Shown here: positions 3,809 through 26,155 of the stretch, piece after piece
How the letters are laid out: every line of letters begins with the position of its first letter
Numbering within the stretch: the stretch's first letter is position 1
From: a bacterium
Lineage (GTDB): Bacteria; Patescibacteriota; Minisyncoccia; Phycocordibacterales; Phycocordibacteraceae
Assembly (NCBI GenBank): GCA_021849125.1
Contig: JAJZTG010000006.1
Location: 1-39,132, forward strand
Direction: 5' to 3'
Length of the DNA stretch: 39,132 bases
Program-made: the position numbers and the translations under genes
The notes under the pieces: model-generated
Databases searched by the model: none
Told to the model about the DNA's origin: nothing
What the model saw: the letters and a program-made list of their open reading frames with translations, nothing else

Positions 3809-3956
3809 TTTGCACGGGACAAGATTTGGTTTTGTGGAAAATGCGGGATTCGAACCCGCGGGGGTACTGAGTTGTAAGAGCCGTTCCCCCGTTCGGTTGG
3901 AAACCGAATGCATTAAACCACTCTGCCAATTTTCCTCACGTCTTGTCCCGTGCAAA
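3809..3956. repeat. 16-bp perfect inverted repeats enclosing a tRNA-like gene
   Basis: tttgcacgggacaaga (3809-3824) and tcttgtcccgtgcaaa (3941-3956). Confidence 0.9.
3835..3935 (-). tRNA. atypical class II tRNA: Ser-like body with TCC (Gly) anticodon and 32-nt variable region
   Basis: GGAAAAT-TG-GCA GAGTGGTTTAA TGC-A-TTCGG TTTCCAA CCGAA-(32 nt, GGGGG/CCCCC stem)-GCGGG TTCGAAT CCCGC-ATTTTCC-A. Confidence 0.8.
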
Positions 3957-10623: not shown

Positions 10624-10988
10624 CAAAGCGAGTCCTCGAGTCTTGTACGCCTAAGCACGCTTGGGAAGCGTGCGTCTAGGGCGAGAAGACCTTGCGAGCA
10701 TTTTCTGGAGCAAGGCGAACAGAAAATCCGCAAGGTGTACTGAAGCTGTAAGCTTCGAGAAATGTACTCATGACCCTTGTAGGCGCACAAAGCGAGTCCT
10801 CGAGTCTTGTACGCCTAAGCACGCTTGGGAAGCGTGCGTCTAGGGCGAGAAGACCTTGCGAGCATTTTCTGGAGCAAGGCGAACAGAAAATCCGCAAGGT
10901 GTACTGAAGCTGTAAGCTTCGAGAAATGTACTCATGACCCTTGTAGGCGCACAAAGCGAGTCCTCGAGTCTTGTACGCCTAAGCACGC
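10610..10988 (+). repeat. 164-bp tandem repeat (2.3 copies) beginning in the tRNA-Lys 3' end
   Basis: Units start at 10610, 10774 and 10938 with cccttgtaggcgcacaaagcg; identical copies. Confidence 0.95.
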
Positions 10989-24222: not shown

Positions 24223-24337
24223 GTCAGACCTCCAATCTGAATAACCTACACGCAAAGAAACGAGCATTTCTGGTATGCACGGTAACCCCATGGTAAACAG
24301 GTGTCAATTGGAGAGTTGCCGAAACTGAAATAGTGAA

Positions 24338-24361
24338 GGCGGAACCATAATGGTTCCGCCT
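24338..24361. terminator. hairpin/terminator
   Basis: aggcggaacca-taa-tggttccgcct. Confidence 0.6.
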
Positions 24362-24591
24362 AGAGGATCAATCGGGCCCTTTTCCGGCCTCTGCGTCGTA
24401 GACGCCAAGGACTTGATCCAACGGGGTGCCGAAACGTCCCCTATCCTTGTGCCGGGTGGTATGCCCGGCCATTACTTCGTCGACGCGTATGCATCGTTGT
24501 CTCCTCTCTCGTTGTGGAGAATCTAAAAAGAGTATTGCGTATATATAGGTATTTGTCAATACTTCGCAGATTCGTTTTTGTACCAAAGCTT

Positions 24592-24782
24592 GGTCACGAG
24601 TCGCTAACCGTTTTGCTCCAGGCATTCGCAAAACGCTAAGCGCTCTCGACCCCGGCTCGCTATCCTCGCAGAGCCTCGGACATAGCTGCGCCTTTCAAGT
24701 CCCTCACGCATGACGCGCAGGCGTCATGCTTCCCGGCACAAACGAAAACAGCCCCCTGCGGGCTGCTTCATTTGTGCCAGGA
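24592..24782 (-). mobile_element. tRNA-Leu 3'-linked structured element
   Basis: Trailer pairs with the acceptor 3' strand; antisense T-arm GAGGGACTTGAA (24694-705); motifs shared with the Trp element. Confidence 0.6.
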
Positions 24783-25042
24783 GAGGGACTTGAACCCTCA
24801 CGCCTTTCGACAATTGGTTTTGAATCAATCGCGCCCCGATACTGAAAACGCTGTGCTGGAGGAGGGACTTGAACCCTCACGCCTTTCGACAATTGGTTTT
24901 GAATCAATCGCGTCTACCATTCCGCCACTCCAGCGTTTCAGTACGGGGTGCATCTACCATTTTACCCCGTACCAAACCGAGCGTGCGTCCTCTATCCATC
25001 TACCGTGCGATTACGGTTTTGGTATGGGGCCGACATCCCGGC
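24775..25042 (-). pseudogene. outer tRNA-Leu(CAA) split by two palindromic insertions
   Basis: GCCGGGA (25042-36) pairs with TCCTGGC-A (24782-75); D-loop piece 24949-64; anticodon/V/T arms 24783-833; extended -10 10 nt upstream. Confidence 0.7.
24854..24934 (-). tRNA. tRNA-Leu(CAA), intact nested copy
   Basis: GCTGGAG TG GCGGAATGGTAGACGC G ATTGA TT CAA AA CCAAT..GAGGGTTCAAGTCCCTC CTCCAGCA. Confidence 0.92.
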
Positions 25043-25141
25043 TATGTGTTGAAGGGTAGCATATGCTAAAATCTTTTTCATGAGCCCCGTTAGAAAATTT
25101 CTCACGAACAGTCTATTGCTCTCGAAATCTTTCTGCACGAT

Positions 25142-26155
25142 ATGACCGGTTTTTCTAACGGGGTGAATGAAGAGGCACGCTATGTTCCGACCAAGTACGA
25201 CTCGGTCTTTTGGATCGATGTCGATCGTATCGTGCCGAACCCCTATCAGCCCCGCCGTGAATTCAGCGAAATGGGCCTCAAGTCGCTCGCCGAGAGCATC
25301 CGCCAGTATGGCGTCCTCCAACCGCTCGTCGTGAGCCGTACTGATGTCGAGAAGCCAGACGGCGGTCTTGAGAGCGTCTACGAGCTTGTCGCCGGCGAGC
25401 GTCGTTTGCGCGCGAGCAAGCTCGCAGGTCTCACGCAGGTGCCGGTAGTGATCCGTCAAGGCGAAAGCAATCTCACGAAGCTCGAGCTCGCGATCATCGA
25501 GAACCTCCAGCGCGAAGACCTGAACGCGATCGACCGCGCGAAAGCGCTCCAGAAGCTCATAGAAGAGTTCGGTCTCTCGCATGGTGAGACCGCCGCGAAG
25601 ATCGGCAGGAGCCGTGAGTATGTCTCAAACAGTCTCCGTCTTCTGGCTCTGCCTGAGCATATCCAGACCGCGATCGTTGCTAGGGAGATCACCGAGGGCC
25701 ATGCGCGTCCGCTCTTGGCGCTTAATGATCGTCCTGAGGAGCGCGAAACGCTTTTCAAGGAAATCATCCTCAAGAAGCTGCCGGTCCGTGCCGCCGAGCG
25801 TATCGCACGCTCGATCGCTCAGGAACGCGTCCGCTCATATCACCGGAAGACTCGCGAGACCGTCGAGCTCGAGAAATCGCTTACCGAGACCTTGGGTACG
25901 CGCGTCATCATCGAGACTAACGCGGAAGGGGGCCGGCTCCTCATCGAATTTTTCTCGCCGGAAGACCTCCAGCACTTGGTCGATGCGCTTGTCGCGGAGC
26001 GCGAGGCAGAAGCGCAGCGTGTAGCAGAAGCGGTAGAGCAGTATCCGGTCTACCCGAACACGACTCAGGTCGAGGACGGCGCTATCGCGCAGGCGGCTCC
26101 GGAAGAACCGTCAGAAGACGAAGATCTCTACTCAGTGAGCGGATTTGCCGTGTAG
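25142..26155 (+). CDS. parB: ParB/Spo0J chromosome partition protein
   Basis: PNPYQPRR, GVLQPL, AGERRLRA, IIENLQREDLN, HTH GRSREYVSNSLRLL. Confidence 0.95.
   Translation: MTGFSNGVNEEARYVPTKYDSVFWIDVDRIVPNPYQPRREFSEMGLKSLAESIRQYGVLQPLVVSRTDVEKPDGGLESVYELVAGERRLRASKLAGLTQVPVVIRQGESNLTKLELAIIENLQREDLNAIDRAKALQKLIEEFGLSHGETAAKIGRSREYVSNSLRLLALPEHIQTAIVAREITEGHARPLLALNDRPEERETLFKEIILKKLPVRAAERIARSIAQERVRSYHRKTRETVELEKSLTETLGTRVIIETNAEGGRLLIEFFSPEDLQHLVDALVAEREAEAQRVAEAVEQYPVYPNTTQVEDGAIAQAAPEEPSEDEDLYSVSGFAV

What the first reader, a model, noticed from the sequence alone, without database searches (positions are those of the whole stretch)
24775..25061. Matryoshka tRNA: an intact tRNA-Leu(CAA) nested inside a doubly interrupted tRNA-Leu(CAA)
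Seen (minus strand): TGcTACCCT-N10 (same spacing as the tRNA-Lys promoter), then GCCGGGATG, [palindrome 1, 25029-24965], TAAAATGGTAGATGCA, [palindrome 2, 24948-24834, whose loop is a full tRNA-Leu], CGCGATTGATTCAAAACCAAT..TTCAAGTCCCTC-TCCTGGCA. Removing both inserts with a few flanking nt gives a plausible cloverleaf GCCGGGA TG GTA AAATGGTAGA TGC G ATTGA..; exact junctions are uncertain. Inner and outer share 51 identical nt (24783-833 = 24862-912), including an A-C mismatch in the anticodon stem, but have different self-consistent acceptor stems, which a simple att duplication cannot give. Inference: a palindromic element that disrupts a tRNA while carrying a rebuilt replacement, or stem-closed D-arm introns whose removal yields two tRNAs from one transcript.
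Basis: partly seen in the sequence, partly recalled or inferred. Interest (0 to 1): 0.9.

Follow-up and report, generated by a model that had tools for sequence, protein, structure and literature searches.

The report
Nested tRNA-Leu gene in Kaiserbacteria
A working leucine tRNA gene, bracketed by short inverted repeats, sits inside the broken remains of an older leucine tRNA gene in a tiny groundwater bacterium, and the same nesting recurs at a threonine tRNA gene and in related species, so it looks like repeated DNA-level gene replacement rather than RNA splicing.

Summary
On the minus strand, a conserved promoter-like motif is followed by tRNA positions 1-13 (A), a hairpin (P1), positions 14-26 (B), an inverted-repeat arm (P2L), an intact tRNA-Leu(CAA), the other arm (P2R), then positions 23-76 (C). 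Independent contigs from two studies reproduce it, so it is not a chimeric assembly.

The organism is a 578-kb Candidatus Kaiserbacteria (CPR) genome. At least six other species of the genus carry the same architecture.

- In those species the outer gene is visibly dead: its 3' part is truncated, interrupted or decayed, and its 5' acceptor strand has mutated.
- A ~95% identical strain lacks C altogether.
- EndA and RtcB were not found, and the region has no group I intron core.

So "two tRNAs from one transcript" is not supported. [quoted passage not shown] is supported.

- The 51-nt identity between the inner gene and C is best read as local gene conversion.
- The nested allele is scattered on an 8-protein tree (6 changes).
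- The same genome has a second nest at tRNA-Thr(UGU). Of the 30 best-matching genus loci, 15 show a covarying leader-trailer helix flush with the acceptor stem.

The mechanism of insertion remains inferred.

The parts
25053..25061 (-). TGCTACCCT, an extended -10-like motif 10 nt upstream of piece A; presumed promoter of the whole unit
   Evidence: The same TGNTANNNT-N10 arrangement directly precedes the tRNA in un-nested relatives. The simple sigma-70 scan did not call it, so promoter function is inferred from conservation only.
25030..25042 (-). Piece A: outer tRNA positions 1-13 (acceptor 5' strand GCCGGGA, U8, G9, D-stem 5' strand with one change)
   Evidence: Orthologous to the tRNA 5' end of G011, G133 and others. 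The ~95% strain has the unmutated 13-mer (25033 A>C on the + strand).
24965..25029 (-). P1: hairpin inserted in the outer D loop (arms 25014-25029 and 24965-24979, 33-nt interior)
   Evidence: Short versions (4-7 nt loop) occur in G036, G089, G116 and G172. Of the 13 differences to the ~95% strain, 6 (including 25013) lie in the 33-nt interior and none lies in the arms.
24949..24964 (-). Piece B: outer D loop plus decayed D-stem 3' strand and position 26
   Evidence: Conserved as TAAAAATTGGTAGA.. in four other nests.
24935..24948 (-). P2L: 5' arm of the inverted repeat that brackets the inner tRNA
   Evidence: leader-trailer duplex -24 kcal/mol, z -4.1.
24853..24934 (-). Inner tRNA-Leu(CAA), acceptor GCTGGAG/CTCCAGC, no encoded CCA; the functional gene
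   Evidence: ARAGORN; Rfam 57.1 bits. It is the only tRNA-Leu(CAA) in the genome. No difference to the ~95% strain is listed inside it.
24834..24852 (-). P2R: 3' arm of the inverted repeat; its end (..CGGGG) also resembles an acceptor 5' strand
   Evidence: 13 P2 pairs are kept in 5 of 5 aligned nests, with a C-G to U-A change in G116.
24775..24833 (-). Piece C: outer tRNA positions 23-73. Its first 51 nt are identical to the inner gene; its acceptor 3' strand TCCTGGC matches piece A.
   Evidence: Rfam scores it 17.5 bits, a partial match. Only its first 10 nt are present in the ~95% strain.
24745..24766 (-). GC-rich hairpin followed by TTTT; terminator-like
   Evidence: sequence. The scan lists the stem only on the + strand. 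Inferred.
24590..24739 (-). 'Module Y': an inverted copy of the outer-type tRNA 3' end split by a hairpin, then a structured region. It is a repeat family found after several tRNA/tmRNA genes.
   Evidence: (I5, I9).

Best explanation
This is a DNA-level nested gene replacement.

The proposed event:
- A resident tRNA-Leu(CAA) gene of the GCCGGGA/TCCCGGC type stood directly behind its promoter, next to parB.
- It was split in its D arm by a cassette: a complete second tRNA-Leu(CAA) gene (GCTGGAG/CTCCAGC type) bracketed by about 14-17 nt inverted repeats (P2).
- A related 'empty' hairpin (P1) sits in the D loop.

The present state:
- The resident promoter now drives one transcript.
- From it, RNase P (its RNA is present in the genome), 3' trimming and the CCA-adding enzyme (present) release the inner tRNA.
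- Pieces A, B and C are non-functional debris that decays or is deleted.
- In this genome, C was overwritten over 51 nt by gene conversion from the adjacent inner gene. That is why the bodies are identical while the acceptor strands differ.
- The P2 helix, and probably P1, are retained as structured pre-tRNA leader and trailer.

What is shown: the anatomy, its presence in other species and strains, the decay of the outer gene, and the lack of EndA and RtcB hits.
What is inferred: the insertion event itself, the direction of gene conversion, the promoter, and the processing route.
For: 1. Seven genus genomes share the A/P1/B/P2L/inner/P2R/C order or parts of it: G000, G032, G036, G079, G089, G116, G172.
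2. Un-nested relatives have a GCCGGGA-type gene at the same promoter spacing.
3. The outer gene is defective in the other six:
- C is cut after the anticodon loop in G036 and G172.
- C carries a 31-nt hairpin in the anticodon loop, and A/P1/B are missing, in G079.
- C has a T-arm deletion, and P1/B are missing, in G032.
- The acceptor 5' strand has mutated in G089 and G116.
4. In a ~95% identical strain (two runs of another study), the contig leaves C after 10 nt and continues into a hairpin like window ~24336-24364. About 460 nt including C are therefore absent.
5. In G089, G116, G079, G172 and G036 the inner tRNA is a different type from C. Its nearest un-nested matches (87-89%) are in the other subclade or another family, while C resembles tRNAs of the host's own clade.
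6. There are 51 identical nt, then 4 of the next 7 differ. G032 shows the same inner = C body identity with another sequence.
7. EndA (PF01974) and RtcB (PF01139) were not found at 99.57% completeness. No Rfam hit other than the tRNA scored E <= 0.01 in 24300-25150.
8. RNase P RNA and the CCA-adding enzyme are present.
9. P2 pairing is kept in 5 of 5 aligned nests.
10. A second nest of the same topology occurs at tRNA-Thr(UGU) in this genome and across the genus.
Against: - No enzyme for insertion was found: no TnpB-like gene, no reverse transcriptase, and only one tyrosine recombinase.
- P1 and P2 have no other copy in this genome.
- There is no clear target-site duplication. CGCG versus TGCA is ambiguous, and CGCG is itself palindromic.
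- C looks intact in G089 and G116 and differs between them by a compensatory pair. That is unexpected for old debris unless the event is recent in each lineage.
- The palindrome arms resemble tRNA acceptor ends. P1L is like an acceptor 3' strand plus ACCA. The end of P2R (GCTGGGG in G089 and G079) pairs 7 of 7 with TCCCGGC by my reading. A history of tandem, internally deleted copies is therefore not excluded.
- A, B and the P1 arms are better conserved between species than flanking intergenic DNA, which hints at a function I cannot name.
- No RNA data exist.
Confidence: 0.6

Rival explanations
1. Tandem array with internal deletions. The locus descends from three or four head-to-tail tRNA-Leu copies (with their trailers) that each lost interior segments. 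On this view A and C never belonged to one interrupted gene, and the palindromes are acceptor-strand remnants of neighbouring copies.
For: - P1L resembles an acceptor 3' strand plus ACCA.
- The end of P1R plus B reads like tRNA positions 1-26.
- The end of P2R plus C folds as a D-arm-less tRNA in G079.
- Tandem tRNA-Gly(CCC) remnants exist on contig C6.
- In the Thr nest of G231, the outer and inner leaders and trailers look like diverged duplicates.
Against: - A (1-13), B (14-26) and C (23-76) cover the tRNA once, in order, with only a 4-nt overlap, and the joined form is callable as a tRNA.
- The same abutting of 5' and 3' pieces at the D arm recurs in Thr nests.
- Arm complementarity extends beyond the acceptor-like part.
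- A sits exactly at the promoter-proximal start.
Confidence: 0.2
2. Remnant of a classical integrase-mediated integration. An element carrying a tRNA 3' part integrated and later left, leaving C as the displaced attR-side fragment.
For: - There is a direct repeat of the tRNA 3' part.
- tRNA gene fragments from integration of genetic elements are a known source of partial tRNA genes (PMC9897764; abstract read).
- Downstream 'module Y' ends in a direct copy of the tRNA 3' end in many relatives.
Against: - Only 18 nt separate the repeats.
- The 5' part (A, B) is duplicated too.
- The intact gene's acceptor pairs perfectly, whereas the displaced strand pairs with A.
- There is no integrase nearby.
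Confidence: 0.08
3. RNA-level excision. P1 and P2+inner are removed from the transcript, giving a second, outer tRNA-Leu (spliced, or a two-piece tRNA held together by the P2 helix).
For: - The minimum-free-energy fold of the G000 transcript pairs A with the end of C and forms P1 and P2.
- Joined pieces are callable as a tRNA.
- This genome does splice one tRNA by a group I intron.
Against: - The outer gene is defective in six other species, and C is absent in a near-identical strain.
- EndA and RtcB were not found.
- No intron family hit was found.
- P1 is as short as 31-33 nt in relatives.
Confidence: 0.04
4. Assembly chimera of two strains.
For: The locus contains a 51-nt exact repeat, at which short-read assemblers break (contigs end there).
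Against: - Identical contigs cover both sides of the inner gene in X1.
- One 931-nt contig of another study spans A to P2R.
- Six other species assemblies show the same order.
Confidence: 0.01

Closest known systems
Partial tRNA genes left by integrating genetic elements (attL/attR duplications of the tRNA 3' part)
   Same: There is a direct repeat of the tRNA 3' portion next to an intact gene, and a tRNA gene acts as a hot spot. The kind is described in PMC9897764 (abstract read). The sublocation classes of integrases are recalled from memory.
   Different: The 5' part is duplicated as well. The intact gene lies between the two halves of the old one. Only 18 nt separate the repeats, and there is no integrase or island.
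Archaeal intron-containing, split and permuted tRNA genes (bulge-helix-bulge introns at non-canonical positions)
   Same: A tRNA gene is interrupted in the D arm by stem-closed inserts, and several inserts occur in one gene (recalled; PMC3978253 seen in a search listing only).
   Different: This is a bacterial genome with no EndA or RtcB hit. The interrupted gene is decaying in relatives. No tRNA-inside-an-intron case is known to me (recall).
Group I introns in bacterial tRNA anticodon loops
   Same: The same genome has one: RF00028 at 62.6 bits inside a tRNA on contig C7, with an ORF that looks by eye like an HNH homing endonuclease.
   Different: P1 and P2 are 33-115 nt hairpins with no ribozyme-core hit, and they lie in the D arm rather than the anticodon loop.
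Leader-trailer helices of rRNA precursors
   Same: A long helix forms between 5' leader and 3' trailer and encloses a stable RNA (PMC10250234, search listing only). That RNase III cuts such helices is recalled.
   Different: Here it encloses single tRNAs. Leader pairing that extends the acceptor stem is reported to hinder bacterial RNase P (PMC9433436, abstract start in the listing), so an extra cleavage step would be needed. This is untested.
MITEs and palindromic insertion elements such as Rickettsia palindromic elements
   Same: Short inverted-repeat-bounded inserts inside genes (recalled; MITE review PMC10969869 seen in a listing).
   Different: This one is single-copy in the genome, has no clear target duplication, and carries a complete tRNA gene as cargo.

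Membership tests
Functional bacterial tRNA (inner gene) | Cloverleaf recognised by covariance model and by ARAGORN | tested here: met
   Rfam RF00005 at 57.1 bits (cut-off 29); ARAGORN calls Leu(caa).
Functional bacterial tRNA (outer gene A+B+C) | Contiguous or spliceable gene kept intact in relatives | tested here: not met
   The joined form is callable in G000. But the outer gene is truncated, interrupted or decayed in 6 of the 6 other nest genomes, and C is absent in a ~95% strain.
Archaeal-type (BHB) tRNA intron | Splicing endonuclease EndA in the genome | tested here: not met
   PF01974: 0 matches at E <= 1; completeness 99.57%.
Archaeal-type (BHB) tRNA intron | RtcB-type ligase in the genome | tested here: not met
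   PF01139: 0 matches.
Archaeal-type (BHB) tRNA intron | Bulge-helix-bulge motif at both junctions | not tested
   No BHB scan was run. By eye the P1 and P2 stems run to the junctions without the 3-nt bulges (folds).
Group I intron | Conserved catalytic core (Rfam RF00028) | tested here: not met
   No hit in 24300-25150 at E <= 1. The model does detect the intron on contig C7.
Integrative-element att duplication | Direct repeat of the tRNA 3' part | tested here: met
   61 nt at 93% identity.
Integrative-element att duplication | Element with an integrase between the repeats | tested here: not met
   18 nt lie between the repeats. The only PF00589 hit is on contig C1.
MITE / palindromic mobile element | Terminal inverted repeats | tested here: met
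   P1 arms are 12 nt at 92%; P2 arms are 13 nt at 85%.
MITE / palindromic mobile element | Several copies per genome | tested here: not met
   No second copy in G000. There are 3 loosely similar hairpins in 5 relatives, at terminator-like sites.
MITE / palindromic mobile element | Target-site duplication | tested here: inconclusive
   CGYG/CGCR flanks P2 (G036: CGTG / CGCG), but CGCG is itself a palindrome.

The most novel reading that the evidence does not exclude
Kaiserbacteria may harbour a self-propagating tRNA cassette: a complete tRNA gene whose leader and trailer form one continuous helix with the acceptor stem. Such a cassette would insert, from the same or a foreign genome, into loop positions (D loop, position 26, anticodon loop) of the isoacceptor gene. 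It would kill that gene and replace its function, so the host becomes dependent on the cassette. The recursion seen in G237 (three levels), the patchy distribution, and the identical inner tRNA in distant hosts would be its footprints. This would be a mobile element whose only cargo is a tRNA and whose mobility depends on hairpin DNA or on an enzyme supplied in trans.
Probability: 0.2. Interest if true: 0.85.

Novelty: new variant of a known kind. Interest (0 to 1): 0.62.

Why it matters
- Annotation: tRNA gene fragments are usually read as scars of integrating elements. Here the scar encloses a complete replacement gene, at two loci in one genome and in many species of one CPR genus. This matters for tRNA annotation in metagenome-assembled genomes, where fragments and insert-bearing genes are missed or miscalled.
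- tRNA evolution: it bears on how tRNA genes turn over in minimal genomes that hold a single copy of each.
- RNA processing: the leader-trailer helices that continue the acceptor stem covary across species. They pose a concrete question, because such pairing is reported to hinder RNase P. These bacteria either cut the helix first or process tRNAs differently.
- If the cassettes prove to be mobile, they would be an unusual selfish element.

Tried and rejected
- RNA evidence: no RNA holder was listed for the locus, so expression, transcript ends and splicing could not be examined.
- Wider scans: the nest-specific motif found 4 loci in genome contigs, all genomes already known. It found 6 loci in metagenome contigs, of which 2 were the same genomes and 4 were unrelated chance hits.
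- Multicopy palindrome family: none in G000 apart from one unrelated-looking intergenic inverted repeat on contig C3. There were 3 extra CCCCGTA..TACGGGG hairpins in 5 relatives, at terminator-like sites.
- ParB-only tree: poorly resolved. It was replaced by the 8-protein tree. Those 8 genes are all linked to the locus, and rows with under 600 filled columns were dropped (G074, G127, G138, G173).
- RNase Z: only a weak hit of 20.4 bits against a cut-off of 293, so 3' processing is left open.
- sigma-70 scan: it does not call the presumed promoter.
- Literature: five full-text searches returned no paper on nested bacterial tRNA genes or on Kaiserbacteria tRNA loci. This is a negative from those term sets only. 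Supplementary files were not consulted.
- Rejected idea that C is under selection on its own: it is defective or absent in 5 of 8 genomes and strains.
- Rejected idea that the inner body of G000 was converted from C: the G000 body type also occurs in the un-nested G128 and G138 and in the other subclade. Conversion from inner to C is therefore favoured, but the direction is not proven.

Full report
**What is there.**
The minus strand of 24775-25061 reads as follows:
- an extended -10-like TGCTACCCT (25053-25061), then 10 nt;
- piece A, GCCGGGATGTCGG (25042-25030);
- hairpin P1 (25029-24965);
- piece B (24964-24949);
- arm P2L (24948-24935);
- an intact tRNA-Leu(CAA) (24934-24853);
- arm P2R (24852-24834);
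- piece C (24833-24775).

ARAGORN and Rfam see only the inner gene. C scores 17.5 bits as a partial tRNA. The repeat finder gives the 61-nt direct repeat and the arms of both palindromes. The repeat is 51 identical nt followed by 4 differences in the next 7 (p = 8e-5). An A-like 9-mer arises in 55 of 20,000 shuffles. Joining A, B and C by coordinates gives an ARAGORN tRNA-Leu(caa) in 1042 of 12,474 junction variants.

**Organism.**
- The window is a whole contig of a 578,160-base, 7-contig genome scored 99.57% complete.
- It has 56% G+C, 39 tRNA genes and a tmRNA.
- Record titles of nest-bearing relatives name Candidatus Kaiserbacteria / Paceibacterota / Parcubacteria.
- parB starts 80 nt upstream on the other strand.

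**Assembly.**
- Contigs of run X1 (a groundwater sample, possibly the source) match the window exactly over 24783-24891 and over 24928-25078.
- Runs X2-X4, from another study, hold a ~95% identical strain. One 931-nt contig spans 24824-25134 with 13 differences and 1 gap.
- That contig, and one from X4, leave the window at 24824. They continue with letters that match the hairpin at window ~24336-24364 in about 25 of 29 positions (my comparison by eye).
- In that strain C is therefore cut to 10 nt and about 460 nt are absent.
- Its piece A is the unmutated GCCGGGATGGCGG, and no difference is listed inside the inner tRNA.
- A further X1 contig shows a variant with a short P1.
- A chimera is excluded.

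**Relatives.**
- Of 222 genus genomes searched, 179 matched the locus at E <= 1e-5, nearly all over the tRNA only.
- Matches reaching beyond the tRNA led to six more nests: G032, G036, G079, G089, G116, G172. More may be hidden, because 67 matches were not listed.
- G036, G089, G116 and G172 have A, a short P1 (4-7 nt loop), B, P2L, the inner gene and P2R.
- C is complete in G089 and G116.
- C is cut after the anticodon loop in G036 and G172.
- C is interrupted by a 31-nt hairpin in G079, which also lacks A, P1 and B.
- C has lost part of its T arm in G032, which lacks P1 and B.
- Piece A has 1-5 changes from GCCGGGATGGCGG, different in each genome.

**Inner versus outer.**
- In G089, G116 and G079 the inner tRNA is identical. 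G172 and G036 differ from it by 2-3 nt.
- This inner type differs from C throughout its anticodon, variable and T arms.
- Its nearest un-nested matches (87-89%) belong to the other subclade or to another family.
- In G000 and G032 the body of the inner gene equals the body of C within each genome, while the acceptor strands differ. I read this as gene conversion between the adjacent copies.

**Phylogeny.**
On a tree of eight concatenated proteins encoded next to the locus (3240 columns, 27 rows), the seven nest genomes need 6 changes, all forced by branches with SH-aLRT >= 95. Only G036 and G172 are sisters. Either the nested allele spreads between species, or it is lost very often by replacement with intact alleles. 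I cannot tell which.

**No splicing machinery.**
- PF01974 (EndA) and PF01139 (RtcB) give no match.
- Apart from the tRNA, the only Rfam match in 24300-25150 at E <= 1 is a weak plastid-motif hit (E 0.073) on the opposite strand of the tRNA.
- RNase P RNA (114 bits) and a PolyA_pol/CCA-adding enzyme are present.
- RNase Z is not clearly present.

**Structure.**
- RNAalifold on five nests keeps P1 and a 13-pair P2 that continues towards the acceptor stem. A few changes are on both sides, for example C-G to U-A in G116.
- The minimum-free-energy fold of the G000 transcript also pairs A with the end of C. This shows only that the nested fold is possible.

**The pattern is not unique to this locus.**
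- Among 39 tRNA genes of G000, the leader-trailer duplex is strongest for Leu(CAA) (-24 kcal/mol, z -4.1) and Thr(UGU) on contig C7 (-22.4, z -4.8).
- The Thr locus is a second nest, in this order:
  - an outer 5' piece, GCCGCCTTAGCTCAGTTCG;
  - a 12-nt arm;
  - an intact tRNA-Thr(UGU) of another acceptor type;
  - the complementary arm;
  - the outer D-stem 3' strand and a degenerate anticodon arm with hairpin insertions;
  - an outer T arm and acceptor strand, AGGCGGC, that pairs perfectly with GCCGCCT.
- Among the 30 best-matching genus loci, 15 have at least 12 of 14 leader-trailer pairs flush with the acceptor stem, with the discriminator paired to -1.
- Mismatched leader/trailer pairings average 6.55 of 14. 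Runs of 10 or more occur in 9 of 30 own pairings against 6 of 870 cross pairings. This sample is enriched for loci resembling the query.
- The arms differ in sequence between species, so pairing rather than sequence is what persists.
- Outer 5' pieces are visible in 7 of these loci and outer 3' pieces in 8 (by eye).
- In G231 and G237 the outer and inner genes are the same type. The outer unit has its own leader-trailer helix, and G237 shows three levels.
- Several Thr loci also carry a small hairpin just upstream of the arm, as P1 does here (by eye).

**Reading.**
- The comparative data fit a DNA-level event that places a helix-flanked tRNA unit inside the D arm of the resident isoacceptor gene.
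- The promoter and the inner gene then stay under selection and the rest decays.
- Because the inner gene can be foreign (Leu; Thr in G000) or a copy of the resident gene (Thr in G231 and G237), the event is better described as nested insertion or duplication than as transposition of one element family.
- I favour hairpin-mediated template switching, or recombination after DNA uptake (DprA is encoded in the window). This is inference.
- The tandem-array alternative is kept at 0.2.

**Side observations.**
- About 170-nt modules follow at least 7 of 36 tRNA genes. Each has an inverted copy of the tRNA's own 3' end at about +20-40 and a direct copy at about +150-180. The upstream control gave 0.
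- The Leu and His modules share 68 nt at 95.6% identity.
- An alignment of eight Leu modules gives 22 of 36 predicted pairs with changes on both sides.
- One tRNA, probably Asn, carries a 604-nt group I intron.

tRNA genes of this genome are evidently a focus of structured insertions.

Noticed in passing
G000 contig C7:168900-169180 (L115:300-580, minus strand): Second nested tRNA. An intact tRNA-Thr(UGU), with acceptor GCCGGGG/CCCCGGC, is bracketed by 12-nt inverted repeats. It lies inside pieces of another tRNA-Thr(UGU) with acceptor GCCGCCT/AGGCGGC. The same topology occurs in many genus genomes, with covarying arms.
   Followed up: partly
window 24590-24739(-); also window ~10625-10790(+) after tRNA-Lys(CTT); contigs C1, C5, C6, C7: A ~170-nt 'module' follows at least 7 of 36 tRNA genes by strict criteria, and also His and the tmRNA by looser ones. 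Each has a spacer, an inverted copy of the tRNA's own 3' ~20 nt split by a hairpin, a structured region, and a direct copy of the last ~13 nt at +150-180. The Leu and His copies are 95.6% identical over 68 nt. There is no Rfam hit. Covariation is seen in 22 of 36 predicted pairs.
   Followed up: partly
window 3835-3935(-): A tRNA (Rfam 60.1 bits) with a 30-nt GGGG..CCCC hairpin in the variable region and anticodon loop UUUCCAA. ARAGORN misses it without the intron option.
   Followed up: partly
G000 contig C7:108142-108818 (L113, minus strand): A tRNA split in the anticodon loop by a 604-nt group I intron (RF00028, 62.6 bits) carrying an ORF with CxxC..HH motifs, HNH-like by eye. The acceptor TCCGCGG/CCGCGGA with discriminator G and one possible junction suggest tRNA-Asn(GUU), which is otherwise missing. 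An upstream mini-hairpin holds a partial copy of its 5' part.
   Followed up: partly
G000 contig C3:9264-9575 (L114:165-476, plus strand): A tRNA-like gene just after the 5S rRNA with a 237-nt insertion in the anticodon loop. It has no Rfam intron hit, and its identity is unclear.
   Followed up: no
G000 contig C6:21600-21860 (L116, minus strand): tRNA-Gly(CCC) is followed by a tRNA-like unit, a second Gly copy lacking its 5' end and carrying two hairpins (one with a UACG loop), and a second tRNA-like unit. This is a tandem duplication with decay.
   Followed up: no
G000 contig C7:168945-169016 (inside the Thr nest): A ~70-nt palindromic element (CTGCC..GGCAG) matches at 81-86% identity at other places in many genus genomes, sometimes twice in tandem (G031, G102). 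G000 has only one copy.
   Followed up: no
whole genome G000: No tRNA-Ala was found by ARAGORN or Rfam in an assembly scored 99.57% complete. tRNA-Ile(GAU) lies at the start of contig C4, so Ala may be unassembled or interrupted.
   Followed up: no
loci L018, L046, L047, L059 (G009, G115, G171, G070): In these relatives tRNA-Leu(CAA) lies upstream of parB in the same orientation, instead of divergent from it. The locus has therefore also been inverted in some lineages.
   Followed up: no
locus L037 (G138): A promoter is followed by a 28-nt acceptor-only mini hairpin (GCTGGGG..CTTCAGC), about 50 nt with a hairpin, and then the complete GCTGGGG-type tRNA-Leu(CAA). This is another form of 5' duplication at the same site.
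   Followed up: no
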